Assembly: GCA_965215565.1 (NCBI GenBank) | Contig: CBDCDZ010000004.1 | Span: 800,001 to 864,000, forward strand | Direction: 5' to 3' | DNA from: Trueperaceae bacterium | GTDB lineage: Bacteria > Deinococcota > Deinococci > Deinococcales > Trueperaceae | DNA: 64,000 nucleotides | Part shown: positions 10,891-36,726 of the stretch, in pieces | Layout: every line of letters begins with the position of its first letter | Position numbering within the stretch: position 1 is the stretch's first letter | Position numbers and translations under genes: made by a program | Notes under the pieces: generated by a model | Databases searched by the model: none | Told to the model about the DNA's origin: nothing | The model's input: only the letters and a program-made list of their open reading frames with translations

Positions 10891-10898
10891 ACTTCGGA

Positions 10899-10966
10899 TG
10901 TAGCGAGGGAATAAAGTCCGATACACGGGAATAAAGTCCGATACAAAGTAAAAAAGTCCAATACGG
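10899..10966 (+). repeat. Tn7-like end with three contiguous TnsB sites (right-end type)
   Basis: 8-bp terminus, then 20-bp units at 10907, 10927 and 10947 (GGGAATAAAGTCCGATACA-like). Confidence 0.92.
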
Positions 10967-11168
10967 ACTTGAGAGAATGATGAGCGCTTTTCAGTTGGCG
11001 AACCAAGTTGTGCATAGTTCATCGTTAGAGTTAAAAGCAGTCTACCTTCTTCTCAACTGAAGGGGTAGACTGCTCGCTAGTAATCTGTAGGTCTGCCGAA
11101 AGGTATAGCCGTTCAAGGAGCTCAAGGAGATTGTTCGGAAACCTACCACTTAGGGGCAAGCGCCATTT

Positions 11169-14100
11169 ATGAATGTGGACGAAACCAGAATAGTTAATCT
11201 GAAACCAGCCATTGATCAAATTAGGCAACGGCTCCATAGCGGGCAGGCGGCAGCTATGGTCGGAGCTGGCTTCAGCCTCAACGCCACAAAGAAATCAAAG
11301 GATGCCCCGAAGTTTCCGCTATGGAGCGACTTAACGGATCAAATTTTCCATCAGGTATATCCAGATTTTCCTAAAGACAACGACCATTTGAGCCACGAAC
11401 AGATCGCGTCCAAAGCGCGAAAGACATCTGATTTCTTGAGGCTCGCCCAAGACTTTGAGAATAACGATAGAAGTAAGTTAGATGCATTTCTCGAAAAAGC
11501 TATACCTGACAGAGACTACAACCCGGGAGAGCTACATAAGCAACTCCTGAACTTGCCCTGGGCTGACATCTTCACGACAAACCAGGATACGTTGCTCGAG
11601 AGAACCACTGGCTTCATTCAGCGGTATTACAGCGAAGTTTTGTCAGAAAAAGCCTTATCTTCTGCCGCACCCCCGCGAATTGTCAAGTTGCACGGAACTC
11701 TAGGGCACAACAATTATATCTTCACGGAACGCGACTTCGACAACTATCCTACCCACCATGAAGCGTTCGTCAGCTACGTCCAGACTTCACGGGCGATCAA
11801 TACGTTTTGCCTTTTTGGTTTTTCTGGTGATGACCCTAACTTCAAGAAGTGGAACAATTGGGTCTTGAATGTTATGGCAAATCACGCACCTCAGGTGTAC
11901 CTCATCGGCCTTCTTAACCTAAGTAAACAGGATAAAAATTACTGGCGAGACAGGAAAGTCGTTCCAATAGACCTCTCAGTCCTTTTCCAGCCAGGACAAA
12001 AGCCAGACCATGCGCTTGCCCTCGAATGGTTTCTAAACGAACTCCGAGACGAAAAGGGAGGGTCAGTCGTTGAAAAAGACGGCACGGAAGAAAGCGAAGA
12101 TGATGCGCCACTTCTCTCTTGGCCTAATGTACCGGGAGCGGCCAACACTAGACTTTACATGCCTGAGCCTTACGGAAAGGACCTGACGCATGATCAGCTA
12201 AAGGAGATTGCATTGCACTGGCGTAAGCAGCGGTTGTCCTATCCCGGCTGGCTCATTACTCCGCGTGCAAATAGAGAAAATTTGTGGTCTCTAACAGAGA
12301 TGTGGGTTGATCCAGTCTTCCAAGCTGCGCAAGATATGGATGTATCCGAAGCTATCTTAGTGCTTCATGAACTGTGCTGGCGTATTCGTCAATCGCTATT
12401 CCCTTTTCTTATCGATCATGCCAAAATCATTGCTGACAGGCTCGAAACTCTTAATCCGTTTCCTGATAACCCTGAATTAAGCGGCTCTGAAGTTGTACGC
12501 GGCAACGAAGCATTTGCTGAGCTGGACTGGAAGGTGTTGGAAGAGGCTTGGCTCGAGCTTGCTTTCGTGGTGGCGCAAGAGGCTAGAGAGGACCTAGACG
12601 AGCAGAGATTCACTGTATGGATGACAAGATTGGAGAGCGTCATCCCTAAAAATGGCGACTGGTATCACCGTTGGCACCACGAACAATGCTTAATGGCGCT
12701 CTATAAGTTAAACCAGAACAGCCTCGAGCAGCATCTAGGTGAATGGATCGTTCCCGAAGCAGATTTCGTTTGGTCACTCAGGAAGTCTGCCCTCTATGCT
12801 GAGCTAGGGCAAATCAAAACGGCAACGAAGTCTTTGGAGAAGAGCCTAACGACAATTGAAGAGGCCAATGAGAAGGAAGAAGACATACACATAGGACTTC
12901 TTTCTGCGGAAAGTTGGACACTATTCGCCCTCAACGGTATAAAACGGGCTGAAAGAATTTTTCCTAATGACACAGAGTGGCAATATAAATATTCCGCTCG
13001 CCGAGAAGCACTCAAAGCGTACAGATGCGACCCCGGTGACGAGATAGATTTCCTAAGCCAAAAGGTAAGCGGCCTGCTCCCTCAGGAGAAACCAGAAGAG
13101 ACCATCAAGCATGAATTTGACCCTGGAAGGGTGACAACGACAAAGCACTTCGGACATCCATCGTCTATCGTAGATAGGCGTCACGCCTTTGCGCTGCTAA
13201 CCCTACCTGAGCACGCTGGTATTCCTGTGCGCAGCGGCAGCGTGCGGTTTTTGAAGAATGCAGAGCAAGCGGCACAGTGGATTTGGCCTTCTGCCCCTTT
13301 GTGGGCGTTAAGTGCATATATCCGTAATGGTTACGACCACAATAAGCGGGTTGATCAGTGGCTTACACGGGTTGAGGTTGCGGGTATAGCGCAAGGTGTC
13401 GCTGATGCCAGCTTCCGCATGTTCGTCCCTGCACTAAAGCAAGTGATAAGATTATTGCCTACCGAACCGCCGAGACGGAGCAGCTTTTCAGAAGAGATAG
13501 TTGTCGCCCTTGGGGAAGTGCTTTCTCGCTTAACGGTCCTCTTCTCTCCGCAGCAACTTGAAGAGCTTTTGGATGTCACTTTAGCGATGTACGAGAGCCC
13601 GGCGTTCCAAAAGGATTTTCGCCTTTACAGTGTAGTTGAGAAGTTTTTAAGGCGTGTCTTGCTAGCCCTCCCGAATACCGAACTTACCCAGCGCCTACCG
13701 GAAATTCTAAGCCTCACCTTTCCTGGAGATAAACACTCCCTAGTTGACGACATGGCGTCAGGAAACTGGCCCGAGCCCGTCAATTACATCCAATGGGATT
13801 TGCTAAATGAAGAGCTCATTGATAAGAAGGGTTCCGAGTGGGTTAGCGTGATAAGCAAGCTCACGACTGACGTTGAACATGGGTCTTCTCAAGTTAGGTC
13901 TCGAGTGGCGAGCAGGTTAGAGAAGCTTTCAAGTGCAAACCTATTGACCTCCGACCAGAAACAAGCCTTTGGCAAAGCGCTCTGGTCAAGGACATACGAG
14001 ACCCTAGACCTTCCTTCAGAAACGGAGTTCACCCCTTACGGTTTTATGGTCCTGCCAGCTCCCGAGCCCAGACGCGCAGTTGAAAGCCTGCGCTCCTACA

Positions 14101-15101
14101 TAAAGGACAACGATTTCCCTCGACTCTTCTCCTATGAGGAACCTAAAGCATCTCCCGTTAGTCATTTGACAAGGGAGGGCAAACCCGACCTCTACTACAG
14201 CCGTAACCGTAAAACAGAGAATCTCATCAATGCTTGGAAATATGCTTCAAAACGTCCCATAGATACTCTCGTGAGAAAAGATGCTTACCTTATCGAATGG
14301 TCGCCTGAGGAAGCCAGCGAACTCTTCGATAAGATTCTCACCTGGTGGCGGTGCGAAAAAGATGACGTTTTAGAAGCGAAGGTAAAAATCGCTTTTAAAG
14401 ACGAAATTCAGAATAGGATTCATGAGGTTCTTTATATCGTCGGGCATACGATTCTTCCACATTTCAAGGCGAGTGAAGAGAGCGAGAAAAGCAAGGTTTT
14501 CGACTTTTTAGAGGACCTGGAGAATTCTGATTTCGTTGTTCTCTCACCTCTGCCGATGACACTCTATCTAAACAGTTCGAAAGAGCGGCAAAGGCAATTA
14601 ACAGACAAACTCCGTAGGGGTATTCATAGCCAAGCTAAAGAAGAAGTCAGTGAAGCTCTGCAAAGTACGATGGATTGGTTAGCCTACGCCGCACTTGGTG
14701 AGCTTCCCGAAGCACCCCAGACTGTCCTCGAAGACGTCGCTCTAAAATTGGTTGCTCGGCGTGGACCTAAGCTTCGGTCTACAATTCAGATACTGACTTG
14801 GATTATCAGATTTGTCCCGCAAGTTCTAGGTGAGGTTTCGCTGAGATACATTCTCATTGCCCTTCAGTTTTTGCTCGAGGAGACGACAACCGCGCACGAG
14901 ATAAAATCAGCTCACACCCCTATTTCGGCTGAAGAGATACCTCACCTCCGAGTAGAGGCGGCTAAATTAGCGAGTGAGCTTTACCGCTATTACGGCGAGT
15001 GTGGAAGAGAAATGCCTGAGATACTGCAAGAGTGGCAGCAGATATCTTTTGAGGACCCACTTCCAGAAGTAAGAAAAGCTTTTTCTACGACTCAGAACTA
15101 G
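11169..15101 (+). CDS. SIR2-domain defence protein (Dsr1-like defence-associated sirtuin)
   Basis: N-terminal SIR2-like motifs VGAGFS, FTTNQD, KLHG, FGFSGDDPNF followed by about 1000 aa of probably helical sequence; AT-richer than the host genes. Confidence 0.8.
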   Translation: MNVDETRIVNLKPAIDQIRQRLHSGQAAAMVGAGFSLNATKKSKDAPKFPLWSDLTDQIFHQVYPDFPKDNDHLSHEQIASKARKTSDFLRLAQDFENNDRSKLDAFLEKAIPDRDYNPGELHKQLLNLPWADIFTTNQDTLLERTTGFIQRYYSEVLSEKALSSAAPPRIVKLHGTLGHNNYIFTERDFDNYPTHHEAFVSYVQTSRAINTFCLFGFSGDDPNFKKWNNWVLNVMANHAPQVYLIGLLNLSKQDKNYWRDRKVVPIDLSVLFQPGQKPDHALALEWFLNELRDEKGGSVVEKDGTEESEDDAPLLSWPNVPGAANTRLYMPEPYGKDLTHDQLKEIALHWRKQRLSYPGWLITPRANRENLWSLTEMWVDPVFQAAQDMDVSEAILVLHELCWRIRQSLFPFLIDHAKIIADRLETLNPFPDNPELSGSEVVRGNEAFAELDWKVLEEAWLELAFVVAQEAREDLDEQRFTVWMTRLESVIPKNGDWYHRWHHEQCLMALYKLNQNSLEQHLGEWIVPEADFVWSLRKSALYAELGQIKTATKSLEKSLTTIEEANEKEEDIHIGLLSAESWTLFALNGIKRAERIFPNDTEWQYKYSARREALKAYRCDPGDEIDFLSQKVSGLLPQEKPEETIKHEFDPGRVTTTKHFGHPSSIVDRRHAFALLTLPEHAGIPVRSGSVRFLKNAEQAAQWIWPSAPLWALSAYIRNGYDHNKRVDQWLTRVEVAGIAQGVADASFRMFVPALKQVIRLLPTEPPRRSSFSEEIVVALGEVLSRLTVLFSPQQLEELLDVTLAMYESPAFQKDFRLYSVVEKFLRRVLLALPNTELTQRLPEILSLTFPGDKHSLVDDMASGNWPEPVNYIQWDLLNEELIDKKGSEWVSVISKLTTDVEHGSSQVRSRVASRLEKLSSANLLTSDQKQAFGKALWSRTYETLDLPSETEFTPYGFMVLPAPEPRRAVESLRSYIKDNDFPRLFSYEEPKASPVSHLTREGKPDLYYSRNRKTENLINAWKYASKRPIDTLVRKDAYLIEWSPEEASELFDKILTWWRCEKDDVLEAKVKIAFKDEIQNRIHEVLYIVGHTILPHFKASEESEKSKVFDFLEDLENSDFVVLSPLPMTLYLNSSKERQRQLTDKLRRGIHSQAKEEVSEALQSTMDWLAYAALGELPEAPQTVLEDVALKLVARRGPKLRSTIQILTWIIRFVPQVLGEVSLRYILIALQFLLEETTTAHEIKSAHTPISAEEIPHLRVEAAKLASELYRYYGECGREMPEILQEWQQISFEDPLPEVRKAFSTTQN

Positions 15102-15107
15102 CGAGGG

Positions 15108-17651
15108 TCAAGCGAGAAGGCGGTGCACCACCGCATCGAGCAACTGCTCCGCGTCCCCCTGCGCCCGCTTTAGCCCCTCCTCCAGCGCGTCAATCAGCCC
15201 CATAAGCTCATCCACCTTAGCAACGATGCGTTTTTGTTCGTTGAGGGGCGGGAGAGGAAATACAAAGTTTTTTATGGACTTAACACCTACGTTTGCCTGA
15301 GTGGTTTTATTAGGCTCTGTTGAAATTCTTCAGTACTAGTTGTTAGAAAAGGGCATGAGCGACGTAAGAATCAAGGCTAAGCAGTGGACTAAAATCAAGG
15401 CATTCTTAGATGAGAACCCGCAGGTGTATGTAGGACAGGAGAAGCAGTGCCGTAAATTTGTTGAAGGGGTACTGTGGATGTTGCGTTCGGGTGCACAGTG
15501 GCGACTTCTCCCCCCGAGGTATGGCAATTGGAACAGTGTGTATAAGCGTTTTGACAGATGGAGTGAACGAGGCATCTGGAAGGAAATGTTTGAGCACTTT
15601 GCTGATGATCCCGATATGGAAAGTGTGATGATGGACGGCAGTGTCGTGCGAGCCCATGCGTGTTCGGCAGGTGCGCCCCATAAAAAAGGGGTCAAGAAGA
15701 ACAACACCTCGGCTATAGTCGCGGCGGGTTCAGTAGCAAGATACACGTCTTAGTCGATGCTTTAGGCAATCCGTTGCGGCTCTTACTCAGTGCCGGACAA
15801 GCGCACGAAGCGCCTTATGCCAAAGCCTTACTCGCAGACTATGAGGTTGAATTTGTGTTTGGTGACAAAGCCTATGACGCTGAAGCTATCCTCACGACTA
15901 TCGCTGAGATGGACGCCGAAGCGGTCATTCCACCCAAAAGCAACCGCAAAGAGCAGCGCGATTATGACGAAGAACTGTACAAAGAGCGTCACCTAGTTGA
16001 ATGCTTTTTCAACAAGCTCAAGCAGTATAGGCGCTGCTTCTCACGCTTCGATAAGTTCGCTCGTAACTACCTCGGCTTCTTACACTTCGCCTCGGCTCTC
16101 ATCTGGTTGCGGTGAAATGTCAACACAACCTAGTATATCTTGCGATCTCATTTTTTACAAGTCCAGACAACGAATAAAAGTAGATATATCTTGGCTCTAC
16201 GTGTCCCTTTAAGTTCTTGACAACTGCGCACGAGTAAGACGCAAGAAAGTCTATATCCGTTTCAACGAGTCCATTCTCTCCAATAGTGCCATAACGGGGG
16301 AAATGATGTCATCTCTCTTAGGCTGTATCTTACGACTCAACCGCTCAAAGTCGGTATTAGAAATTTTCTTTGCTGTTGAAAAGTTGATCTCGTTGTCCCC
16401 CGTAAAATCTCGAGGAGATACATAAGGTACGCCTTCTCTTACCTCTTCCGGCATCTTATGATCTACATCTCCTATTTGAAGCGAAACTTCATCCCATCTA
16501 CACCAGCGCCAAGTATTTGGTATTCGTATGGAAGTTTCGTCAGAACTAACTGGAGTTAAACCCTTTGTTTTTCGTATCTTTCCCTCTTCAACTAATTTTG
16601 CTTTCTCAGCTTCTATGCTCTCGAGCAACACTCCCGCCGGTTCATCCTCCGGGTCTTGGGGCACGAGCTTCCCCTGCACCGCCAGTTGCAACACCGCCTT
16701 GCGCAACGCCGCGACGCCCCCCGGCGCAGCGCACAAGAGGTCGAAGTTGTCCCGCACGCGCCGCCAGCTCCCCGCAAACGTATCCGCGTCCTCTGCGCTC
16801 AGGAGAGAGCTTAGCGCCGCGCCGCCGAACCTCATGCGGGCGTCCCTTTTGGCGCGTCCTTGCGCCTCGAGCCTGTCTATAAGCCCCATAAGCTCGTCCA
16901 CTTTGGCGACGATGCGTTTTTGTTCCTCGAGGGGTGGGAGGGGGAACAGAAGTGTATTTAGCTTGCCCTGATAAATCGCTGCAACATTAGTCGTATTTGA
17001 TTTGAGAAGGTCTAGTAGACTTTTACCCGAGGGAGACTGAAACCAGAGATTAGCAAAAGCATTATTAACACCCGGTCCGAAAATAACTTTAAGAATATTG
17101 TTGTTGAACAGCCAAATTTCTCCTGTCGGATTGAGAAATACACACGTTTTACCTACCAGCTCGAAGCTATTTCTCGTGTTGAAAAGAAAATCACCTTCAG
17201 ATAACTTGTACTTCTCAAGCTCTTCCTGGCTGGCATCGACTTTGGTAATGTCGCTAAAATCACACAACCCTGTTGTAGAAATATTGTTCATTTTGAAATA
17301 TGGGTAGTTGTTGCTTTCAGATTGTAAACGTTTTGCGCGTTCTAAGCCTGTGTGAGAATCGAGTTTTATAGATTCGAAATCTACCCAAACCCAAGATTGT
17401 GGAAGACAGAATGGACCATCAACCGACTCTGGAGTGAATAACTTTGATTTCCGAATCTGCTTATTCTGTATCTGGTTATATTTCTCTAACGTTAGTTTGC
17501 GAACTAACGCTGAGGCAGACTCATCACTCGGGTCTTGTTCGACTAACTTCCCCTGCACCGCAAGCTGCAACACCAGCTCGCGCAGCTTCTTGGCGGCGTT
17601 GGGCGCGTCGGTCAAGAGGTCGAAGTGGCGCTCTAAGGTCTCAGGCGTCAT
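15108..17651 (-). pseudogene. hsdS: Type I RM specificity subunit, disrupted in TRD2 by a 1-nt deletion (about 16300) and an IS insertion
   Basis: LQLAVQGKLV twice and PLPPLxEQKRIVAKVDELM twice; the 3' piece at 15108-15312 rejoins in frame when the IS and one TA are removed. Confidence 0.9.
15313..16130 (+). mobile_element. IS5-family (IS427-like) insertion sequence, 818 bp, copy 1
   Basis: IRs GGCTCTGTTGAAATT / AATGTCAACACAACC, TA duplication; orfA 15355-15753 and orfB ending 16115 joined by an AAAAAAGGGG slippery site; YKERHLVECFFNKLK motif. Confidence 0.93.
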
Positions 17652-18006
17652 CGTCAGCGCGTCCTTCTTCAGTTTGGTCTAACGCGCTTTGCAGCTCGGG
17701 CAAGAGCACAGGGATTTCGTTCTCGACCACATCCCACACGGTCTCCAAGCGGATGCCGAAGTAGTGGTGCGCCAGCACGTCACGAAACCGCGCTAGGCTG
17801 CGCCAGGGGATAGCGGGGTGCTGCTCGCGCACCTCGGCGGGGATGTTTTTGGCAGCTTCCCCCATGATTTGCAGGTTGTGAAGGGTCGCGTCTATGACCT
17901 GTTCGTCGCCTCGGAACCTCTCAAAGTCGTAGCCCTGAGTATAGCGCTGTACCTTTTGCGCTGCGCCCCGCATGTCCTCCAAAAAGAGGCGGGTGCTACG
18001 CGGCAT
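17641..18006 (-). CDS. HEPN (DUF86/HepT-like) RNase toxin
   Basis: IMGEAAK...IPWRSLARFRDVLAHHY containing the RX4H motif. Confidence 0.9.
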   Translation of the reverse strand: MPRSTRLFLEDMRGAAQKVQRYTQGYDFERFRGDEQVIDATLHNLQIMGEAAKNIPAEVREQHPAIPWRSLARFRDVLAHHYFGIRLETVWDVVENEIPVLLPELQSALDQTEEGRADDDA

Positions 18007-18307
18007 GGATGGTCAGTAAGTCCTGCTGTACCTCTTCGGTGACGTGAGGGTTCAGCGTGCCTTGCGTCGCCAAGTCCACCTTGCAGCCTAAGAGGTCTTC
18101 CAGGTAGAGCAGTGCGCCCGTGTACTGCCGAAAGGTCGGAGCGCTGCCGAAGTCCGCCAAGAGGTCTACGTCGCTCTCGGCGCTGCGCTGGTCTCTAGCG
18201 GTTGAGCCGAAGAGCGACAAGCTGCGAACGCCGTAGCGGGATTCTAGGACGTTAAGGTGTTCGCGCAGCGTTTGGATGATGTGTTCGCGCTTTAGCTCAC
18301 CTGTCAT
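17996..18307 (-). CDS. Minimal nucleotidyltransferase (MNT) antitoxin
   Basis: LFGSTARDQRSAESDVD (GSX10DXD), KVDL; overlaps the HEPN gene. Confidence 0.9.
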   Translation of the reverse strand: MTGELKREHIIQTLREHLNVLESRYGVRSLSLFGSTARDQRSAESDVDLLADFGSAPTFRQYTGALLYLEDLLGCKVDLATQGTLNPHVTEEVQQDLLTIHAA

Positions 18308-18536
18308 AATTTGTGCGGCGCTCCATCCCCCTTAGCAGTTCCTTCTGCGCCTTCGGGTCGTGCATAGGCTCCGCGAACGCTTCCCAGAGGGCGATGGTCT
18401 CTTCGATGCGTTGCGCCTCTGTATTCTGGTCTATGTCCTGACCCGCTTCGATGTCTTCCAATGCAGCGGCGAGTCTGAAAAGGGCACTATCGTCAAGCTG
18501 GTCTATCTTTCTGCGTAACTGTTCTCTCACGGTCAT
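18297..18536 (-). CDS. Small hypothetical protein (79 aa), overlapping hsdM and the MNT gene
   Basis: Overlaps both neighbours; helical, antitoxin-like composition. Confidence 0.65.
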   Translation of the reverse strand: MTVREQLRRKIDQLDDSALFRLAAALEDIEAGQDIDQNTEAQRIEETIALWEAFAEPMHDPKAQKELLRGMERRTNYDR

Positions 18537-20002
18537 AACGCTACCTCTTCACCCTCCATCTTACCCGCTTCGGGCTCCAACGCCGCCATCAGCTCCCGTT
18601 TAAGCGCGTCCCGCGTCTCAGCGAGGTCGGCTAAGTGGGCTTGATACTCCGCTAAGAGGTCGTCGGGGTCGCCTAGAGCTTCCTCAACCGTATGCGGGTT
18701 CTTGATGTCCAGGTTGTAGCCGTTCGCCTTGATGTCCTCCACCGGAACGCGCCAGGCGTGGGCGTTCTCTTCGCGCTTATCCCACCACGCCTTCTCCGGG
18801 GCAAACTCGTCAATACGCATCGGCTTGGTCTTGGAGTACGACTTATAGCCCTTGGGGTAGGGGTGCTCGTAGTACCAGACCTCTTTCGTGGGTCTGCCTT
18901 TGGTGAAGAAGAGCAGGTTCGTCTTGATGCCCGTGTAGGGGTTGAAGACGCCATTGGGCAACCTCACGATGGTGTGCAGGTCGCACTCGTCCAAAAGCCG
19001 CTCTTTGATGCGCGTCTTGACGCCCTCACCGAAGAGTGTGCCGTCTGGCAAGACGAGCGCGGCGCGTCCGCCAGGTTTCAAGAGGTGCATGATGAGGACT
19101 AAGAAGAGGTCCGCCGTCTCGCGGGTGCGGTAGGTCGCGGGGAAGTTCTGCTCGATGCCGTCTTCCTCGGTGCCGCCGAAGGGTGGGTTGGTGAGCACCA
19201 CGTCTACGCGCTCGCTCGGGGCATAGTCGCGCAGAGGACGGGCTAAGGTATTGTCGTGACGAACTGAAGAGGGCACGTCAACGCCGTGCAAGAGCATGTT
19301 CGTCACGCAGAGCATGTGCGGAAGTTGCTTCTTCTCGACGCCGTGAATGGAGGCTTGTAGGGTCTCCCTATCTTCTGGTGTTTGGACGTAGGTGTCGCGC
19401 ACGTGCTCGAGCGCCGCCGTCAAGAAGCCGCCTGTACCGCACGCCGGGTCTAAGACCGTCTCGCCCAGCTTAGGGTCGGTCATGTCCACCATGAACTGTG
19501 TCACGGCTCGAGGTGTATAGAACTCACCCGCGTTGCCCGCGCTCTGCAAGTCTTTGAGGAGTTGTTCGTACAAATCGCCGAAGAGGTGCTGGTCTTTGGA
19601 GCTGTTAAAGTCGATCTCGTTCAGTTTATTGACCACTTGGCGAATCAGCGTACCGTTCTTCATGTAGTTGTAGGCGTCTTCGAAGACGCTACGGACGACG
19701 GTGGCTCGAGCGTCCCCGGCGGGCAAGTTCTTCAGCGCCGGGAAGAGGTCGGCGTTGACGAAGTCCAAGAGGGCGTCACCCGTGATGCCCTCGTCGTCGC
19801 TCGCCCAACTCTGCCAGCGCAGCCGCTCGGGGATGGGTGAGGTGTAGGCGTCGTCGAACATTTCGTGCTCTTGTTCGCGGTCGTCGAAAATTTTTAAGAA
19901 GAGCAGCCAGACGAGTTGGGAGATGCGCTGGGCGTCGCTATCTACCCCGGCGTCCCGGCGCATGATGTCTTGGATGCTTTTGACGGTGGTGCTGAGGGAC
20001 AT
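18533..20002 (-). CDS. hsdM: Type I RM N6-adenine methyltransferase
   Basis: GEFYTPR, DPACGTGGF, NPPFGG; resembles EcoAI/type IB subunits. Confidence 0.96.
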   Translation of the reverse strand: MSLSTTVKSIQDIMRRDAGVDSDAQRISQLVWLLFLKIFDDREQEHEMFDDAYTSPIPERLRWQSWASDDEGITGDALLDFVNADLFPALKNLPAGDARATVVRSVFEDAYNYMKNGTLIRQVVNKLNEIDFNSSKDQHLFGDLYEQLLKDLQSAGNAGEFYTPRAVTQFMVDMTDPKLGETVLDPACGTGGFLTAALEHVRDTYVQTPEDRETLQASIHGVEKKQLPHMLCVTNMLLHGVDVPSSVRHDNTLARPLRDYAPSERVDVVLTNPPFGGTEEDGIEQNFPATYRTRETADLFLVLIMHLLKPGGRAALVLPDGTLFGEGVKTRIKERLLDECDLHTIVRLPNGVFNPYTGIKTNLLFFTKGRPTKEVWYYEHPYPKGYKSYSKTKPMRIDEFAPEKAWWDKREENAHAWRVPVEDIKANGYNLDIKNPHTVEEALGDPDDLLAEYQAHLADLAETRDALKRELMAALEPEAGKMEGEEVAL

Positions 20003-20097
20003 GGGGTATCTTATAACGTGGGCTCGAGGTATGATCGCGACTTCTTTTTGTAGTGTGAAAGCGCTTGCTGGCTCACGTATAATTGAACCTATCTGCT

Positions 20098-23310: not shown

Positions 23311-23342
23311 CCCCATCTAATTTACCAGCGCACTTAACATCT

Positions 23343-25923: not shown

Positions 25924-25941
25924 TGTGTACTAACGTACACA
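25924..25941. promoter_or_regulatory. Putative XRE operator palindrome
   Basis: TGTGTAC-TAAC-GTACACA immediately before the AAGGAGG RBS of the first XRE gene; TTGACA at 25851. Confidence 0.5.
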
Positions 25942-25956
25942 TAAGGAGGTAGGGGA

Positions 25957-26205: not shown

Positions 26206-26209
26206 CGTC

Positions 26210-26461: not shown

Positions 26462-26522
26462 AGGAGGGAGGGACGAGTCTCGAGCGCTGCTATTTCGACA
26501 AGGTATCGTAAGGGAGAGAGCT

Positions 26523-27056: not shown

Positions 27057-27328
27057 GGAAAACGACGAAGAACACCCCAGAGGTACAGGACTATCGCCTT
27101 AGCGAACTCGAGCGTGATTACGAAGCTATGACGAAGCAGATTTACCGCATGGCGCTGCGCCACGAAGATATCAGGCAGGAGGTCAGACAATCGAGGGAGG
27201 AGACAAAACGGGGATTGGATGATTTAGGTGATCTTCTACGTAGCCGCTCTTTCTGGACGATATTTACGCTCCTAGCTGGCCTCTTTTTTCTCGCTATCCT
27301 GATCGTTGAAATTCGCATGAGCCTGTAG
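27053..27328 (+). CDS. Small coiled-coil protein with C-terminal TM helix
   Basis: ATGA overlap with the upstream gene; FWTIFTLLAGLFFLAILIV. Confidence 0.65.
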   Translation: MRKTTKNTPEVQDYRLSELERDYEAMTKQIYRMALRHEDIRQEVRQSREETKRGLDDLGDLLRSRSFWTIFTLLAGLFFLAILIVEIRMSL

Positions 27329-27430
27329 CATCTGTACAACACCACCCACGCCGCTACAAAGCCCAACGCTCTTCTGAGGTGAACGTGAGCTGATTGAGTT
27401 GTGTCACTCCGATAAAGCAAAACTCTTTAC

Positions 27431-28417
27431 TTAGCCTACTTCTTCCTCTCGCTCGCGCATCTGTAAAATTGTCTCAAAAATAATGTCTTCATCGTCATCG
27501 ACTTGGATGTTTTGGCTTTCAAGATGGCAGACGGCTTCACGGAACTCTAACCCGCTCACCACCGGAAGAGATTTGGGTGCGCAAGGGAGAGGGAGGTAAA
27601 TGCGTAGTTTAGGTTCGAAATACCAATCGCGGTTCTCAATTCGTTCGTCGCCGCGGATGGTAAATCTACGCTTTTTGGTTTTAGAGTAGGGCGCGTCTAT
27701 CCAAGGTCTTATAGGATTGCGAAAGTAATCAACGTAGTTAAAGCGGGTGCTGAAACTTTGAGGCCGAGGCGCGCTAGGATACGCAAAAATAGCGTTCCTA
27801 CGGTAATTAGGGTTGTGATATCTATTAGATTCAGTTACCGGTTTCCGTCTTGCCAGATATCTGTAAAAGCTAGCTCGACTTATCCTCCATCTCCGACACA
27901 TTTCTTCGATAGAGAACCCCATGAACTTGTTTTGGTGGATTATATATCGATAGAGGTCCTCCCCAAGAGCTACTGGACGACCTCGGTTTCGAATATTCCA
28001 TCTTTTCTGGGTCAATAGACGATTGAGTCTTCTTTTCTCTCTTCGTCTCATTAACTTGAATAAGACTAGCGGCTTAGGTCCACTAACACCGCTCGGCAAC
28101 CACTTAGAAGTCAGATGAGTTAGGCACCGCCTAGCTCTTTGCTTTCCCAGCCTCTTCTTGATGCGGCCAAGTACCCAGACTTCAACCCGCTCAATTGTGC
28201 GACTCACTGTAGAGACCGCAACGCCGTATTGAGTTGCAAGCTCCGACAGAGAAGCAGGCTGCATCCAAAAGCGGTGTGTGAGCTTCGCCTGTTCAAGCGG
28301 GTCGAAAACAGACTGAGTTCCCCTCGTACCCTGTTGGCGAGCTTCAACATACTCATCGAGAAGTCTTTCTGCCTCCTCAACCGCTTCGGAGTAAAGATCA
28401 AATTCCCAAATTGCCAT
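27431..28417 (-). CDS. Hypothetical basic protein with two HTH motifs
   Basis: SLSELATQYGVAVSTVSRTI and RGRP...SIEEMCRRWRISRASFYRYL (resolvase-type HTH); divergent from tnsA. Confidence 0.7.
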   Translation of the reverse strand: MAIWEFDLYSEAVEEAERLLDEYVEARQQGTRGTQSVFDPLEQAKLTHRFWMQPASLSELATQYGVAVSTVSRTIERVEVWVLGRIKKRLGKQRARRCLTHLTSKWLPSGVSGPKPLVLFKLMRRREKRRLNRLLTQKRWNIRNRGRPVALGEDLYRYIIHQNKFMGFSIEEMCRRWRISRASFYRYLARRKPVTESNRYHNPNYRRNAIFAYPSAPRPQSFSTRFNYVDYFRNPIRPWIDAPYSKTKKRRFTIRGDERIENRDWYFEPKLRIYLPLPCAPKSLPVVSGLEFREAVCHLESQNIQVDDDEDIIFETILQMREREEEVG

Positions 28418-28911
28418 TCGTGGGCCCAACACACAACGATTCTACTAGATACTAGTCTTATGTGCAAAATAAGAAACTTTTCGAGACATATTGGAGAAGT
28501 CGTTTATCCACTCTCAAACTCGAAAACTCACTTAATAACGTAGTAATTTCAAGTACCACGCGGCAGAAAAGATGAGAGTAAGTACGTCCTAGACGCATTT
28601 GACAGCGTTTATGGAAGTCTGCTATGACTGTGTTAAAGGGCTAGGTGAAAAGAATGTAATAAGTACTTTTAGCGGCTTTTCAATATAGGAAATCTCGGTT
28701 ATTTGCAGTAACCGAGAAATCCAGATGATCTAATTTGCTTCCGACCTAGTGAGCAGCTTAGACCATCTGGACAGGTGCCGTCAACCCTCGAGAAAGGGAG
28801 TAAGGATGCTGTCCAAGTTAGGAAAAAACTTTTTCGTAGACGCTAATCTCAAGCAAAACGGAGTGCAAATTTACCAAGGGCTCGTTGCTGACGCCTCCAT
28901 TGCTGCTGTAA

Positions 28912-29790
28912 ATGCGGCCTCGCGCGGGTGCAAACCTCTACGGCAGGACCAGGGGCGTCATGCCACAAGGTAAGAAGCGTATGGATGCTGCAGAAGCGCA
29001 AGCAGCCCAGGATAAGGCGATTGCGAAGTGGCGTAAGACAGGCGATGGTCATGGTCAAAACTACGAACCGTGGCTCACCGTTAGAAGAGTGCCGTCGCAC
29101 GGCCGCGTCAGCCGGGTTCTTGGGCGAGTCACAGGCCGCGTGCACCACCTGATGAGCGACCTGGAGACGAACACGTTTTACGTCCTCGACGCTAGCGACA
29201 ACGTTCTCGACATCCGTGAGCAGTACCCCTTATTGCCGTTGGAGGAAACTCTCGAGATTGCAGAAGCCAACACCCTCAAGCATCCCAAACACCCCCGTTG
29301 GAAAGGACCAATTATCATGACGACTGATTTTCTAGTTACACGTGGCGGCGACCTCGGAGATTATCAGGAGGCGTGGTCCGTTAAGCCTTCGTCGGTGCTC
29401 AGTAACAAGCGAGCGCTCGAGAAACTTGAAATCGAAAGGCTGTTCTGGCAAGCTCGGTCAACACCTTGGTATCTGATTACAGAGCGTGAACTGCCCAAAG
29501 GACTGCTGCACAACCTGCGCTGGCTCGCCGCCGCGAGAGACCTGAGCGACTTCCACGTTCCTGCCGACAGGCTCGAGGGTGTACTAGACGAACTCTACCT
29601 CACAATCACTGTCTCCGACGAGCCGCTGGCTAGTTTGTGCAGCCAAATGGACGGGCGGCTCGGGTTACGTGCCGGGACGTCTCTGACAGCGGTGCGACAC
29701 GCTCTCGCGACGAAACGCTGGCACGTAGACCTCACGAAGGCGATTGACCCCGACCGGCCCTCACTGGGTCTCACCCGTATCGATGGATAA
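28912..29790 (+). CDS. tnsA: TnsA endonuclease
   Basis: GHGQNYEPWL, HHLMSDLE, DIREQYPLL, MTTDFL..SVKP, EKLEIER. Start may be 28960. Confidence 0.95.
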   Translation: MRPRAGANLYGRTRGVMPQGKKRMDAAEAQAAQDKAIAKWRKTGDGHGQNYEPWLTVRRVPSHGRVSRVLGRVTGRVHHLMSDLETNTFYVLDASDNVLDIREQYPLLPLEETLEIAEANTLKHPKHPRWKGPIIMTTDFLVTRGGDLGDYQEAWSVKPSSVLSNKRALEKLEIERLFWQARSTPWYLITERELPKGLLHNLRWLAAARDLSDFHVPADRLEGVLDELYLTITVSDEPLASLCSQMDGRLGLRAGTSLTAVRHALATKRWHVDLTKAIDPDRPSLGLTRIDG

Positions 29791-32116
29791 ACCCACTCTG
29801 TCGCCCTCGGTGAACGCCGGAACGAACGACCTTCCCGCAAAGCGCGATATCTTCGCGCTTAACGCCCTTTTCTATATCGTCGATCTCTCTCCCCCCGAAA
29901 AGGATAAGGAAAAGGAACACAAGTTCCAGCGTCTGCTCTGGGCAGTCCCGGATACCGAGCAACTGGTTATGATCGACGTGCCGACCACGAGCCCACCCTT
30001 CTGGATAACACGCAGCGCCCTGCTCTACGAACTCGACGAAGGCAACCTGGTGCTCCAAATGCAGGACCCGTTCGCGCCCCCATCTGTGCAGGAGGAGGAC
30101 CTCACGGAGAAAGAGCGCAACATCCGGGACCGCCGCTGGGCGCTTATCGAGCCACTCGTCACCGACGCGAAGCGCCGAATTTTCTATCCCGAGCACAGCG
30201 GGGCGCTCATCGCCGAGGCGAGTCGGGCGGGCAAAACCTGTCGCACCAACATGCACAAGTTCCTTCGCCTCTACTGGCAGGGCGGGCAGGTGCCAAACGC
30301 CCTCTTACCAGCATTTCACCGATGCGGTGGTCGGGGAAAGCCTAAGACGATTGACGAGGACAAACGAGGCCGACCGAGCAAATTGGCGTTGGTTGATGCG
30401 ACGCGCATCGGCATCAACATTACGAAGGAGCAAGCGGTAAAGTTGGTCGCAGGAGGGCGTAAGTTCATCGAAAAGATGGGTCTTTCGCAAAAGGCTGCCC
30501 ACCGCGAGACGATCCGCGTTTATTTTAGCGAGGGACTCGAGTGGCAAGACGGGAAGCTCGTCGCTATATTGCCAGAGGCGCACCTGCTGCCCACGTTCGA
30601 CCAGTTCATTTATCACTATGGAAAGGTGCGGTCCAACACGGACGCCGTGCGCATCCGTGTCGGGTCGAGGCGCTTCAACCTCCAACACCGGCCCGTGCTC
30701 GGTTCCTCAACAGATAACACGTTTGGTCCTGGTTCGGAGTACCAGGTTGACGCGACCGTCGGTGACCTTTACCTCCTGAGTAGGATTCTCAAGGGGCGCG
30801 TTATCGGGCGTCCTGTCATCTACCTCGTTATCGATAGCTTCTCTCGCATGGTCGTGGGCATCCATGTCGGTCTCGAGGGGCCGAGTTGGTTAGGTATGAT
30901 GCTCGCGCTCGAAAATGCCTTCACCGGCAAAGTGGATTTCTGCCGCCGCTTCGGGCGTGACATCACCGAGGACGAGTGGCCCTGTCATCACTTCCCCGAA
31001 ACCCTCTTAGGAGACCGCGGCGAGCTGATCAGCAAGCACGCGGATCAGCTTGTGAAAGCCTTCGGCATCCGCGTACCGAACACCGCGTCGTGGCGACCGG
31101 ACTGGAAACCCATCGTCGAGAGGAGCTTTCGGACGCTGAACGACGAGGTCATCGACTGGCAGCCCGGCGCGGTACATGAGGTGCGCGAGCGCGGCGAACC
31201 CGACTACCGGCTCGACGCGACCCTGACCCTCGAGGACTTCACCGAAATGCTGATCGTCCTTATCCTGCACTACAACCACAATCATTCCATCCAGGAGGAC
31301 ATGCTTCCCCTCGGGTTCCCCTACCCGGAGCACGGGAACCCGACGCCCATCGAGCTTTGGAACTGGGGCATCGAGCACCGGAGCGGATACCTGAGGATGG
31401 CGGACAGGACACGTGTACGCGCCAACCTCTTGCCCGCGAAGGAGGTCTCGGTGACGTCTCGCGGATTGAACTACCACGGCCAGCACTACGCGCCGCTCAG
31501 CCTCTTGGAGAATTACGGCGACGAGGACCCGGATGCGGCGCACTTCGAGAACTGGTTCCTGCGTAAGTTGGGGCGCAAGACCCGTAAGGTCGAACTCGCC
31601 GTCGATCCGCGTGACGTCTCTTTCGCCTATATCCGTCTCGAGCGTGGCCGCGTTCTCGTGCCCTGCGGCCTCCTGCGCGGCGACCGGCGCTTCGCCGGGA
31701 TGTCGTTCCAAGAGGTGATGGACGCGCGTGCTGTGAAAGCTATCAGCAACCAGGTGAATCAGACCGAAGTGCTCCGCGACTGGGCGGCGTTCCGCGCCGA
31801 GGTTGAGGCTATTGAAGAACGCGCCTGCAAGCAGCGGGACGACGCCTTGGGCAGCGCGAACACCCCTGCGAACGTCAAGAACATCCGCGAAACGCGCAGC
31901 GTCGAGCGGCGGGAGCTTCAGCGCGAAGGGGTCTGGTACTTGGGCGACGTCCCTCATACGGATGATGCCCCTGACGCAGCAGAAAACCCAGATCATCAAG
32001 CACCGTCGTCAGCGTCAGGCAGCGACGGTCAACAGGGCGGCTACGTCCCGCCGCCCTCGAACCTTGATTTGCTCACCGCCGCCAGAGCACGTAAGCAGGA
32101 AGAGGAGGCATCATGA
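29783..32116 (+). CDS. tnsB: TnsB DDE transposase
   Basis: GPGSEYQVDAT, GRPVIY..IDSFSR, LGDRGE, KPIVERSF; overlaps tnsA and tnsC. Confidence 0.95.
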   Translation: MDKPTLSPSVNAGTNDLPAKRDIFALNALFYIVDLSPPEKDKEKEHKFQRLLWAVPDTEQLVMIDVPTTSPPFWITRSALLYELDEGNLVLQMQDPFAPPSVQEEDLTEKERNIRDRRWALIEPLVTDAKRRIFYPEHSGALIAEASRAGKTCRTNMHKFLRLYWQGGQVPNALLPAFHRCGGRGKPKTIDEDKRGRPSKLALVDATRIGINITKEQAVKLVAGGRKFIEKMGLSQKAAHRETIRVYFSEGLEWQDGKLVAILPEAHLLPTFDQFIYHYGKVRSNTDAVRIRVGSRRFNLQHRPVLGSSTDNTFGPGSEYQVDATVGDLYLLSRILKGRVIGRPVIYLVIDSFSRMVVGIHVGLEGPSWLGMMLALENAFTGKVDFCRRFGRDITEDEWPCHHFPETLLGDRGELISKHADQLVKAFGIRVPNTASWRPDWKPIVERSFRTLNDEVIDWQPGAVHEVRERGEPDYRLDATLTLEDFTEMLIVLILHYNHNHSIQEDMLPLGFPYPEHGNPTPIELWNWGIEHRSGYLRMADRTRVRANLLPAKEVSVTSRGLNYHGQHYAPLSLLENYGDEDPDAAHFENWFLRKLGRKTRKVELAVDPRDVSFAYIRLERGRVLVPCGLLRGDRRFAGMSFQEVMDARAVKAISNQVNQTEVLRDWAAFRAEVEAIEERACKQRDDALGSANTPANVKNIRETRSVERRELQREGVWYLGDVPHTDDAPDAAENPDHQAPSSASGSDGQQGGYVPPPSNLDLLTAARARKQEEEAS

Positions 32117-34561
32117 ACGACAACTCAGGCGATTCACCCGAGCGCGACAGGTTACGCCAGCGCTTTCCAACCGCCGACTACCGCGAGCAGGCTGTCCGAA
32201 CCTACAACGGTAATCCTTTCATCGAAACCTTGCCAGCCATCCGTTCCGACGAGGATACCGCCGTCATGCTGATGCGCGACCTTGAATACTTCGATGAAGA
32301 CCGGGAACAACCCGTGGAGATACGTCAACATCTCCTCGCTCAGGTTCCGGGTTTCTACACGCCGCTGCCTGAGCCTCTCGAACTCGACGAGCGCCTGTCT
32401 CGGATGATCCGCATCGGCTACCTGGGCCGCAACCCCGTCGCGCCGAGCTTCCACACCAACTTTCGGAACGGCATTCATAACCTGTCGGTAGGGGTTGTGC
32501 GGCGCGTCCCGTGCACCGCTTGGACCTCGGCGACGGGCATGACGCTTATAGGTATCAGCGGCATCGGCAAATCAACGGCTCTCGAGGCGTCGCTCGACCT
32601 CTATCCTCAAGTGATACTCCACGATCAGTATCGTGGGCGTGTGCTGATGCGTAACCAGATCGTCTGGCTGAAATTGGAATGTCCCGGCGACAGCTCGATC
32701 AGAGGATTATGCATCAACTTCTTCAAAGCTGTTGACGAGCTGCTCGGTACAACGTACGCAAAAGAGTACGTGAAGTGGAACTCGACCGTAGAGACCCTCG
32801 TACCAGCTATGGCAACTGTGGCCTACCAGCACATCATCGGCGTCCTCGTCATCGACGAGGTGCAGAACCTCAGCGCCGCGAGTAGCGGTGGCAGAGATAA
32901 AATGCTGAACTTTTTTATCCAGCTTGTGAATACGATAGGGCTCCCTGTAGTGTTAGTAGGTACATACCGCGCGATGCCTATCCTAGGTAGACAGTTTCGA
33001 CAAGCCCGGCGCGGTGGGGGGCAGGGTGACTTTATTTGGGACCGCATGGCGTTCGGTCCGAAGTTTCGCCACTTCTGTGGTGACTTGTGGAAGTATCAGT
33101 ACGTCCGAAATCCTACACCGCTCACCGAACCTATGCTCGAAGCGCTGTACGACGAAAGCCAGGGGATCACCGACATCGTCGTCAAACTCTTCATCCTTGC
33201 GCAACACCGCGCTATGCGCACCGGGCGAGAGCGCCTAGAGCCGAACCTGATCGTTTCGGTCGCGATGGATAGCTTGCGGCTCGCACGCCCCATCATACAG
33301 GCGATCAAGCTCGGGGACAGAAGCGCCCTTGATAGACTAGGCTCTGTTGACATTCCCGAGGAATGGTTGTTAGAAAAGGGCATGAGCGACGTTAAACTAA
33401 CAGCTAAACAGTGGCGTAAAATCAGAGCGTTCCTAAATGAGAAGCCGCAAGTGTATGTAGGACAGGAGAAACAGTGCCGCAAGTTTATTGAAGGGGTGCT
33501 GTGGATATTGCGTTCAGGTGCACAGTGGCGACTTCTACCTCCTAAGTACGGAAACTGGAACAGTGTATACAAGCGTTTTGACAGGTGGAGCGAAAGGGGC
33601 ATTTGGGAAGCGATGTTCGAGCGCTTTGCCGATGACCCAGACCTGGAGAGCGTGATGATGGACGGCTCAGTGGTGCGGGCTCATGCGTGTTCGGCAGGTG
33701 CGCCACATAAAAAAGGGGTCAACAGATGCAAGACCTCGGCTATAGTCGGGGCGGGTTCAGCAGCAAGATACACGTCTTAGTCGACGGTTTGGGCAATCCG
33801 CTGCGGTTGTTACTCAGCGCTGGACAAAAACACGAAGCACCCTACGCCCAAGCCTTACTCGCAGACTATGAGGTCGCGTTCGTATTCGGTGATAAAGCCT
33901 ACGACGCTGACCCTATCCTTACAACTATTACTGAGATGGACGCGCAAGCAGTCATTCCACCTAAAAGCAACCGCAAAGAGCAACGCGACTACGACAAAGA
34001 ACTATACAAAGAGCGTCACCTCGTGGAGTGCTTTTTCAACAAGCTCAAGCAGTATAGGCGTTGCTTCTCAAGGTTCGACAAATTCGCAAGAAACTACCTC
34101 AGCTTTCTCCACTTCGCCTCTGCTCTCATCTGGTTACGGTGAAATGTCAACACAACCTAGATGATGTCCTACCTTTCAAGCTCGATGACCTTCTTCTAGC
34201 TCAGAAGAACGGATTTAACGAGACAAAAAGCCTAAAATTCCTGAAGGAGCTAAAGGACAAACCCGGTACGACGAAAGAGGATGAGGGTGTTGGTGCCCAA
34301 GCAGATGCGCCCCACGAACCATCGCCCTCCGAAACAGGGATGCCTCAAGCTACGCCTGAGCAAAGTGCTACCGAAGCGAACGGCGCTGGATCTGGAGCAC
34401 CTTCGGGAAAAAGGGTGAGTAACCAGTCACTAGTGGCGAGAGTGCTCGCCGGACGTAAGGATAAGCGGTCGGGACATAGCGTGCTTAAAACAGGCGGCGT
34501 CGTTCGCGACCTAGGTGCCGAGTTTCTACAACGCCATACGCAACAGCGCTACAGCAACTGA
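32113..34561 (+). pseudogene. tnsC: TnsC AAA+ ATPase interrupted by an IS5-family element
   Basis: GNPFIETLP, GISGIGKS, LVIDEVQNL; removing 33340-34159 restores ALDRL-DDVLPFKL in frame. Confidence 0.93.
33340..34157 (+). mobile_element. IS5-family (IS427-like) insertion sequence, 818 bp, copy 2
   Basis: IRs GGCTCTGTTGACATT / AATGTCAACACAACC, TA duplication, same two-ORF slippery-site layout; related but not identical to copy 1. Confidence 0.93.
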
Positions 34562-36477
34562 TGCTAGGTACGTTCCCAGAGCTTCTGCCCGACGAGCTTC
34601 TCTACAGTGGGTTTGCTAGGCACCAGGCTACGTTCGGTTACTTAGTAGGGACGCTTAAAAAGAGTCTCTTCAGCACCGTAAACGTTACGGCCACGATTGA
34701 TCTACCTGGGCATCTCGGGGCGTTCGTGTCGCGGTTACCTTCGGCAGATGTGTACTCAGTGGACTACCTGATTCGCAACCACACCATGCTCCCTTACTAT
34801 GAGCCTTTCGTCCCTGCCTCTCGCGCTTCGCTAGCGCGAGAGGCTATGTGCAGCAACCGGATTCGAGGCGTGCATTTTTACCTCAACGCGACACATAGTA
34901 CGCTCCCTAACCCACCTTTTCTTCGGTTCTGCAAGCTGTGTGCCGAAGAAAACCAGCGTGCGTATGGCGTCGCCTACTGGCACCGGACTCATCAAGCGCC
35001 GGGCGTCCTGATGTGTCCCACTCATAAGACTGGACTCGTCAACAGTTCAATTGAGCGGAGTCTTCGCAAAGAGCGGGGGAGGTACTACATGCTGTCCAAC
35101 GAAGTCATGGCAGCCAGCAGCGCCATCTCCGTACCAGAAAGCGAAGAAAGACATCTTCTACAAATCGCCGCAAACACCTCGTTCACCTTAAATGAGAGCG
35201 CAGTCGTCGGAGATTTGCAAAGGTTGCACGAACGTTACCGCTACTTTTTGAACCTTCGAGGCTGGATCGGTAAGTCCGGGCGTATACAGGCACAGGGTCT
35301 GGAAGAAGCCTTCGTTGAGTTCTACAGCGAAGCGTTCCTGGAGGCTCTCAAAACACCTGTGCTCAACGCGGGAACAGGTGACTCTTGGGTCGCGCGTTTG
35401 TTCCAGCTACCGGACCGGGCACATCCGCCTTTGCGTCACTTTCTCGCTATGGGCTTCCTCGGTTACTCAGCAGCAGAGGTTTACACGGGACTCCGCGAGG
35501 TGGGCAAAGAAGACGCAGACTCGGAAGAAATCCCTTCGGGTATGAGGGGCGCAGTATACTCGTCACCTTGCCGCAATCCCTTCTGCGACCGCTATGACAA
35601 AGAGAAGGTGCGGGCGACTAACGCTCCTGAGGGTGCTCCTCGTAAGGTTACCGTTAAGTGCCCTGAGTGCGGCTTCGCTTATGATTTTGACGCCAACTGC
35701 CCGAGAATCTACGCCATCCGCAACGTCGGACCACGATGGGAAGCGCACGTACGTCAGATGATTGCCGAAGGCGACAGGACGAAGTGCCAGATAGCGGAAG
35801 CTGCTGAAATCAGTCCAGACACATTTGACCGAGTTCTGGCGAGGTCCAATGTTGCTACTCCAGATTGGGCGGGTCCTAACAAGGGCGTGCCCTGGTCGGA
35901 TGAGGCGCGGCAGTGACGGCTCGAAAGAAGACAACAGGATTGTCGCGCCGAGTTCCTAGAAATGCGAAAAGCTCACCCCACCTACGGACGCAATGCCCTT
36001 AGGCAAGCTATTCCGAACGCTTATGTGTGGCTGATAAGGCATGACCGTGCTTGGTACGAGGTTCACGCGCCATCAAAGAAATACGTGAATAGTAACAACT
36101 ATGATTGGGGCGCTATTGACGAGGAGTTTGCTAAGCGCGTGCCTAAAATTGTTGAAGAGTTGAGGATGGAGCCCGGCTTTCCGAGGAAAATAACGCGGGC
36201 TGCGATTCGGACCAAGCTCAATCCCACTATTTATGCTCACCGACCTCGAGAAAAGTTGCCCAAAACCTGGGCGGCGGCTACCGCCGCAAGGGAAAGTAGG
36301 GAGGAGTGGCACTCGAGAAGGTGCGCCTGGGTTGCCGACCAATACATCCTGGAGGGTGTTGTTCCTACGCTTCGAGAATTCGTAGAGCGTGCAGCTTTGA
36401 AGAACGTGAGGAGTGCACGACTCTTCTCGGATGTCGATGCATACCTCCGACTTATCAAGTTGAAGGTTGCCTCTTAA
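34561..36477 (+). pseudogene. tnsD: TniQ/TnsD target selector split by an in-frame TGA at 35914-35916
   Basis: FPELLPDELLYS, CKLC..YWHRTHQ..CPTH Zn finger, second CxxxxC..CPEC; the 35962-36477 ORF is in the same frame and has TnsD C-terminal motifs (YVWLIRHDRAW, DWGAID, PRKIT). Confidence 0.9.
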
Positions 36478-36510
36478 TTCATACCGAAGATACTCATGAA
36501 AGTGATAAAC

Positions 36511-36651
36511 TTGTATCGGACTTTATTGCATCAAGAGAGGGTCCAATCAGAGCTGGTAGGTGTTTTTGTATCGAACTTTTACTACAACTGGTGATCGAGA
36601 AAGGCCCGTTATATGCTTCCAATTTATATCGGACTTTATTCCCTTGCTACA
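36511..36651 (-). repeat. Tn7-like end with three spaced TnsB sites (left-end type)
   Basis: Sites at 36511, 36566 and 36624 (TTGTATCGGACTTTATT-like), ending GCTACA. Confidence 0.92.
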
Positions 36652-36726
36652 CTTCGGATTTGATGACGGGAGTCTTTGTTGAAGATTGTCAGTAGAACAT
36701 CATATATTGAGTAGGACTCCCGTCAG

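What the first reader, a model, noticed from the sequence alone, without database searches (positions are those of the whole stretch)
10892..36658. 7-bp target-site duplication instead of the canonical 5 bp
Seen: the left junction is CTTCGGA|TGTAGC (10892-10898) and the right junction is GCTACA|CTTCGGA (36652-36658). The 5-mers abutting the ends (TCGGA vs CTTCG) do not match, so a 5-bp TSD is excluded while a 7-bp one is exact. Known: Tn7, Tn5053 and CAST TnsB enzymes give 5-bp duplications. Inference: either this TnsB clade has a different strand-transfer stagger, or this is a rare aberrant or repeated insertion.
Basis: partly seen in the sequence, partly recalled or inferred. Interest (0 to 1): 0.78.

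Follow-up and report, generated by a model that had tools for sequence, protein, structure and literature searches.

The report
Tn7-type transposon with 7-base flanking repeat
A broken 26-kb Tn7-type jumping element behind the nrdJ gene is flanked by an exact 7-base repeat instead of the usual 5; this is more likely a one-off accident of this locus than a new way of cutting, but the question stays open because no close relative could be checked at both ends.

Summary
CTTCGGA abuts both TGT ends (10899, 36651). Of lengths 2-12 only 7 matches, with chance about 4e-4. The left junction is identical in short-read contigs; the right was not read-checked.

The element is a decayed Tn7-family TnsABCD transposon (IS5 in tnsC, stop in tnsD), 8 bp behind nrdJ in a Trueperaceae genome. 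Related ends lie 5 and 7 bp behind nrdJ.

Of 24 end pairs from distant relatives, 5 had an exact 5-bp repeat, 3 had one mismatch, none had 6 or 7, and 3-4-bp overlaps were in excess.

Best reading (0.52): an ordinary 5-bp enzyme, with the 7-mer made by recombination between insertions 2 bp apart or by one mis-staggered event. Rival (0.36): a true 7-bp stagger. The nine closest TnsBs form a clade with an 11-20-residue insertion near the target-DNA contact region, but no DNA for them was reachable.

The parts
6925..10890 (+). nrdJ, class II ribonucleotide reductase with LAGLIDADG intein; its 3' end is the inferred TnsD target
   Evidence: Pfam; related transposon ends 5 and 7 bp after nrdJ stops
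10892..10898 (+). left copy of the 7-bp direct repeat
10899..10963 (+). nrdJ-proximal end (Tn7 right-end type): TGT, 8 bp, then TnsB sites at 10910, 10930, 10950
11169..15101 (+). cargo: 1310-aa SIR2-like protein
   Evidence: Pfam SIR2_2
15311..16133 (+). IS4/5-family insertion sequence in the cargo
16251..25691 (.). cargo: type I restriction-modification genes (S, M, R), HepT/nucleotidyltransferase pair, NACHT-HEAT protein
   Evidence: Pfam, ORFs
26523..28432 (.). cargo: LuxR-type and HTH proteins
28912..29790 (+). tnsA, intact frame
   Evidence: Pfam Tn7_TnsA N and C
29783..32116 (+). tnsB, 777 aa, intact; D323/D411/E446 invariant; clade-specific insertion at about residues 570-583
32113..34561 (+). 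tnsC (AAA+), interrupted by an IS4/5-family copy at about 33334-34159
34561..36477 (+). tnsD (TniQ + TnsD domains) with an in-frame TGA at 35914-35916; full-length relatives of 636 aa at 65%
36514..36651 (-). distal end (Tn7 left-end type): TGT, 8 bp, spaced TnsB sites at 36640, 36582, 36527
36652..36658 (+). right copy of the 7-bp direct repeat

Best explanation
This is a cut-and-paste Tn7-family element. TnsD binds the last codons of nrdJ, TnsC is loaded, and TnsA/TnsB insert the element a few bases past the stop, right-type end towards nrdJ (anatomy shown; mechanism inferred from Tn7). TnsB has the usual 5-bp stagger. The 7-bp repeat is a one-off product of this locus (inferred). Most likely two independent insertions of the same element, one ending 8 bp and one 6 bp past the stop, sat on different chromosome copies and recombined inside the element; the product has the left flank of the first and the right flank of the second, an apparent 5+2 bp repeat. 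A single mis-staggered joining event would leave the same trace.
For: (1) Of 24 end pairs from distant relatives with the same end geometry, 5 have an exact 5-bp repeat, 3 more have 1 mismatch, 0 have an exact 6 or 7 and 0 have 7 with one mismatch. (2) Flanks from different events are common: 16 of 24 pairs have no 5-bp match, and overlaps of 3-4 bp occur in 3 of those 16 against 0.23 expected from mismatched flanks (P about 0.002). (3) Insertion position wobbles: this end type lies 8 (here), 5 (G001; chance 5e-6) and 7 bp (run X1) after nrdJ stops; 16 of 19 glmS-adjacent ends lie 23-26 bp after the stop. (4) The catalytic core aligns without clade-specific indels to TnsBs of elements with 5-bp repeats; best solved relative is Tn7 TnsB. 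(5) The element is dead (IS in tnsC, stop in tnsD), so it has had time to recombine. (6) Thermus and Deinococcus are polyploid and heterozygous cells are obtainable (PMC6469415); host family inferred as Trueperaceae. (7) Papers state 5 bp for Tn7-like elements.
Against: No overlap longer than 5 bp was seen in 24 pairs, whereas recombination between copies should yield long and short products alike; the short excess is also explained by tandem resolution, which cannot give 7. The surveyed elements are distant (33-43% TnsB identity for the 11 of 24 pairs with a measured TnsB; unmeasured for 13), 8 pairs span two contigs and some may be mispaired. No second allele was seen in the X2/X3 contigs, though contigs drop rare variants. 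Polyploidy of this host is not shown. The different spacers after nrdJ come from different species and could be indels. The close clade has a specific insertion near the target-DNA contact region.
Confidence: 0.52

Rival explanations
1. TnsB of this clade joins the two ends 7 bp apart on the target, so 7 bp is its normal duplication; an inserted helix and loop in the domain after the catalytic core could change how target DNA is bent.
For: One event suffices. The repeat is perfect and abuts canonical ends. P0001-P0009 form a clade (SH-aLRT 97, quick tree). The strand-to-DPR segment is 49-58 aa in 9 of the 10 clade rows aligned (P0005 is truncated), against a mode of 38 aa (169 rows) in the other rows, of which 2 reach 50 or more; Tn7 TnsB shows a 14-residue gap there. 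AlphaFold models the insertion as helix 572-578 plus a loop. By extrapolation from the ShTnsB alignment it falls near R416-N428, which PMC10370016 places close to DNA 12 bp from the duplication. Absence of 6-7 bp overlaps in 24 other pairs suggests accidents of this size are rare (under about 12%).
Against: n = 1. All 5 exact repeats of 5 bp or more among relatives are 5 bp. The catalytic core has no indel. The insertion's length varies from 11 to 20 aa across the clade, which looks more like a tolerant surface loop than a ruler (inference). An earlier scan note reports a 5-bp duplication for another nrdJ-targeting element (e1-4128683, unchecked, other clade).
Confidence: 0.36
2. The duplication is 5 bp and the true element tips lie 2 bp in total outside the TGT/ACA motifs (1+1, 2+0 or 0+2).
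For: Formally fits the single locus.
Against: The extra tip bases would be asymmetric. The geometry TGT, 8 bp, AATAAAGT is the same as in the five relatives whose exact 5-bp repeat directly abuts TGT. The base before the nrdJ-side TGT is A here, C in G001 and T in X1, so it is not a conserved tip.
Confidence: 0.07
3. The repeat is a coincidence of unrelated flanks, pre-existed as two copies, or is an assembly error.
For: No empty site of the same species was available. 1 of 546 mismatched flank pairs overlapped by 8 bp. The right junction was not checked against reads. DNA right of the element is itself mobile-element debris.
Against: Composition-based chance is 4e-4. Left junction confirmed in contigs. 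The genome is nearly closed, 4 contigs.
Confidence: 0.05

Closest known systems
Tn7 (TnsABC+D into attTn7 behind glmS)
   Same: TnsA, TnsB, TnsC, TnsD in one operon; TGT ends; close TnsB sites at the end next to the target gene, spaced sites at the other; insertion just past a conserved gene. TnsB profile hits Tn7 TnsB 7PIK at E 7.5e-135.
   Different: Target is nrdJ; cargo lies upstream of tnsA; no tnsE among the ORFs scanned; flanking repeat 7 bp; TnsB has about 14 extra residues in the post-catalytic domain.
Tn7-like elements targeting nrdB (Acinetobacter) and nrdD (Agathobacter, Fusibacillus, archaea)
   Same: Attachment at the end of a ribonucleotide reductase gene (PMC11014353; bioRxiv 10.1101/2025.07.27.667033).
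   Different: Class II nrdJ here; those papers state 5-bp duplications for Tn7-like elements. TnsD relationship not tested.
glmS-targeting TnsABCD elements of cyanobacteria and Trueperaceae (G054, G055, G633, G400 and others; plasmid element in AP018224)
   Same: Nearest elements with DNA at hand: 33-43% TnsB identity, same end geometry.
   Different: Outside the P0001-P0009 clade; the rows aligned lack the insertion; exact repeats are 5 bp.
Tn552 (Mu/Tn7-superfamily transposase)
   Same: Recalled, from no call: a 6-bp duplication, so the stagger can vary within the superfamily.
   Different: No TnsA or TnsD; my search gave no passage confirming the length.

Membership tests
Tn7-family transposon (TnsABC+TnsD) | Heteromeric transposase TnsA + DDE TnsB | tested here: met
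   Pfam TnsA N and C; TnsB hits 7PIK by sequence and fold; D323/D411/E446 invariant in 127 rows
Tn7-family transposon (TnsABC+TnsD) | AAA+ regulator TnsC | tested here: met
   AAA_22/TniB hits; gene interrupted by an IS
Tn7-family transposon (TnsABC+TnsD) | TniQ/TnsD target selector | tested here: met
   PF06527 + PF15978; one in-frame stop
Tn7-family transposon (TnsABC+TnsD) | Asymmetric ends with TG..CA tips and several TnsB sites | tested here: met
Tn7-family transposon (TnsABC+TnsD) | Fixed, oriented insertion behind a conserved gene | tested here: met
   Same end type behind nrdJ in G000, G001 (14-nt remnant) and run X1; TnsD binding itself not tested
Tn7-family transposon (TnsABC+TnsD) | 5-bp target-site duplication at this copy | tested here: not met
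   Only 7 of n=2..12 matches. This is the anomaly under study: the element is filed by its genes and ends, and this feature is left open.
Tn7-family transposon (TnsABC+TnsD) | 5-bp strand-transfer stagger of the enzyme | not testable with these tools
   Needs an assay or both junctions of close relatives
Hypothetical 7-bp-stagger TnsB clade | Independent insertions of the clade show 7-bp duplications | tested here: inconclusive
   No second element of the clade with both ends found
CRISPR-associated transposon | cas genes or CRISPR array inside the element | tested here: not met
   No cas family among the 19 element ORFs given to Pfam (a chosen subset of the ORFs); no array among the 20 largest repeat families shown

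The most novel reading that the evidence does not exclude
The P0001-P0009 clade is a branch of Tn7-family TnsB with a 7-bp strand-transfer stagger, and its clade-specific insertion after the catalytic core is the structural cause. It would be a natural test case for what sets duplication length in Mu/Tn7/CAST transposases, and it would be missed by pipelines that call ends by 5-bp duplications.
Probability: 0.36. Interest if true: 0.72.

Novelty: new member of a known kind. Interest (0 to 1): 0.45.

Why it matters
The 5-bp duplication is treated as the signature of Tn7-family transposition and is used to call element ends and to pair ends with events (PMC11014353). A clade with a 7-bp stagger would show that the geometry can change in an otherwise ordinary TnsB and would point to a residue stretch to test, which bears on CAST engineering. 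If it is a by-product, it is a clear example that flanking repeats at attachment sites record recombination history and that a single genomic copy does not give an enzyme's stagger.

Tried and rejected
Searches for close relatives with DNA all failed. TnsB in genome contigs: 13 loci, best segments 30-36% (the single protein was used, an alignment might have reached further). TnsB in the family: 3 of 127 other genomes, 37-41%. 25-nt end with up to 3 mismatches: 0 of 363 other genomes of the phylum. TnsD in the phylum: 7 of 363, 24-33%. End pattern in metagenome contigs: 6 of 6 hits without a match to the element. Viral contigs: 10 hits not end-like and 0 of 17 confirmed. Plasmids: best 40.9-42.8%. 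Earlier notes by sequence: none.

G067 has a TGT motif 8 bp after nrdJ but no TnsB sites and no TnsB match (80% complete); about 0.3 such hits are expected in 100 genomes, so it was not counted. No partner end for the G001 remnant. G002 has no end motif behind nrdJ but is too diverged to serve as the empty site. Run X4 covered only 5 of 30 bins and not the junction.

The outer flanks of the G054 tandem match with one mismatch at both 5 and 7 bp, so they are uninformative. The G001 row in the tree was mistranslated and is ignored; the tree is the quick version. Atlas search added nothing. No complex prediction was run: a protein-only job cannot give a stagger.

Literature: no report of a 7-bp duplication by a Tn7-family TnsB surfaced in searches; none of nrdJ as a site in 19 and 38, and 'nrd' does not occur in PMC10293859. 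The library is partial and supplements were not read; target-site tables there may bear on nrdJ.
Full report
Observation. The junctions are as described. The element runs from 10899 to 36651 between 25-nt inverted repeats, 96% complementary. Of flank lengths 2 to 12, only 7 matches exactly. Chance is 7e-5 for n=7 and 4e-4 for any n of 6-12 from genome composition; an empirical control with mismatched flanks gave 1 overlap of 8 bp in 546. Contigs of runs X2 and X3 (one sample, perhaps the assembly's source) span the left junction with no difference. One locus cannot fix the tips: moving 2 bp in total into the element gives a 5-bp repeat.

Anatomy. It is a Tn7-family element: tnsA, tnsB, tnsC and tnsD at 28912-36477, with defence-type cargo upstream (SIR2-like, type I R-M, HepT pair, NACHT-HEAT). 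tnsC is split by an IS4/5 copy and tnsD has an in-frame stop, so this copy cannot move by itself (inference). Three close TnsB sites mark the nrdJ-side end and three spaced sites the other. NrdJ relatives that carry a lineage name are mostly Trueperaceae.

Target. The end lies 8 bp after the nrdJ stop. G001 (same genus) has a 13-of-14 match to the tip 5 bp after its nrdJ stop (chance 5e-6). A contig of marine run X1 shows the tip 7 bp after the stop, and two X1 contigs align across the junction. In 128 family genomes the nrdJ-plus-tip pattern hit G000, G001 and a weak case in G067 that I did not count. So nrdJ is the attachment site and the position varies by up to 3 bp between species. Earlier scan notes report nrdJ-targeting elements in other genomes (unchecked). 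In print I saw nrdB and nrdD sites (passages of PMC11014353, and bioRxiv 10.1101/2025.07.27.667033).

Close relatives. The nearest TnsBs are 69, 57, 56 and 59% identical, then 43-46%. P0001-P0009 form one clade (SH-aLRT 97, quick tree of 57 rows with one mistranslated row). None was found in the genomes, metagenome contigs, viral contigs or plasmids searched. The decisive test was therefore not possible.

Distant relatives. I called ends around TnsB hits and by an end pattern in 128 family genomes and 251 genomes of a cyanobacterial order. Twenty-four right/left pairs were kept. Ends without a partner, one weakly matched pair (G750) and alternative pairings in stacked arrays were left out; 8 pairs span two contigs; TnsB identity (33-43%) is known for 11. 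Longest exact overlaps were 5 bp in 5 pairs, 4 in 1, 3 in 2, 2 in 4, and 0-1 in 12; 8 of 24 match at 5 bp with at most one mismatch; none has 6 or 7. Among the 16 without a 5-bp match, 3 overlap by 3-4 bp against 0.23 expected. Of 19 ends next to glmS, 16 lie 23-26 bp past the stop. All five exact 5-bp repeats abut TGT directly, in the same end geometry as here, which argues against shifted tips.

Mechanism. Shown: genes, ends, repeat, site preference, positional wobble, 5 bp in the wider group. Inferred: how 7 arose. A second insertion on the same molecule followed by resolution gives overlaps under 5 bp, matching the short excess but not this case. Recombination between two chromosome copies with insertions ending 8 and 6 bp past the stop gives exactly the observed flanks. 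Related genera are polyploid and can be heterozygous at one locus (abstract and opening of PMC6469415); this host was not tested. A single mis-staggered joining gives the same trace. Against this, no long overlap appeared in 24 pairs, so such accidents are rare.

Case for a true 7-bp stagger. The segment between the post-catalytic strand and the DPR motif is 49-58 aa in the clade and mostly 38 aa elsewhere; Tn7 TnsB lacks about 14 residues there. The model (mean pLDDT 84.5) shows a helix at 572-578 and a loop, and the fold matches Tn7, ShCAST and Mu transposases. Extrapolating from the ShTnsB alignment, the insertion lies near residues that PMC10370016 places close to target DNA 12 bp from the duplication (passage); calling it domain II-beta is my inference. 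The catalytic core shows no indel. This is a correlate, not evidence of stagger.

Literature seen. Passages only: PMC10370016, PMC12326709, bioRxiv 10.1101/2022.10.12.511933 (67, nothing relevant), PMC11014353, PMC9881144, PMC10293859, bioRxiv 10.1101/2025.07.27.667033 (40). Abstract and outline: PMC6469415. Where a length is given it is 5 bp. Searches surfaced no 7-bp case. The 6-bp duplication of Tn552 is recalled.

Verdict. A real, unexplained 7-bp repeat around a new but decayed member of a known family. By-product of a 5-bp enzyme 0.52, true 7-bp clade 0.36, shifted tips 0.07, chance or error 0.05; these odds are my judgement. Interest 0.45: one natural copy, but with a sharp and cheap test on named records.

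Noticed in passing
window 36659-39800: Older mobile debris between the element and carA: an integrase-like ORF without Pfam hit (37067-37831), an IS fragment, an Mrr/M78 gene and two hairpins right after the junction.
   Followed up: no
window 10907-10947: The first two TnsB sites are a near-perfect 20-bp tandem repeat; one X1 contig seems to lack a unit (loose end at 10927).
   Followed up: partly
window 36652-36665: By eye the target sequence matches the TnsB site at 9 of 14 positions on the minus strand; probably chance given positional freedom.
   Followed up: no
window 6925-10890: nrdJ carries a LAGLIDADG intein; several relatives have about 875-aa forms without intein domains.
   Followed up: no
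G000:C4:1895781-1900521: A second, decayed Tn7-type element behind glmS in the same genome; only its right end was found.
   Followed up: partly
G000:C4:1852994-1934683: Long inverted repeats of another kind, in several copies, bracket about 82 kb around that glmS island.
   Followed up: no
G054:C2:1204657-1277080: Two Tn7-type elements stacked 4 bp apart at glmS; the newer has a 4-bp overlap.
   Followed up: partly
glmS-side flanks in G001, G054, G055, G364, G647, G629, G565, G425, G447, G388, G825 and the nrdJ-side flank in X1: The flank just before the right end often ends in GT or TGT, giving TGT-TGT; target preference or a footprint of older ends.
   Followed up: no
window 16251-25691: The type I R-M genes are interleaved with a HepT/nucleotidyltransferase pair and an opposite-strand NACHT protein with 78-bp repeats.
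   Followed up: no
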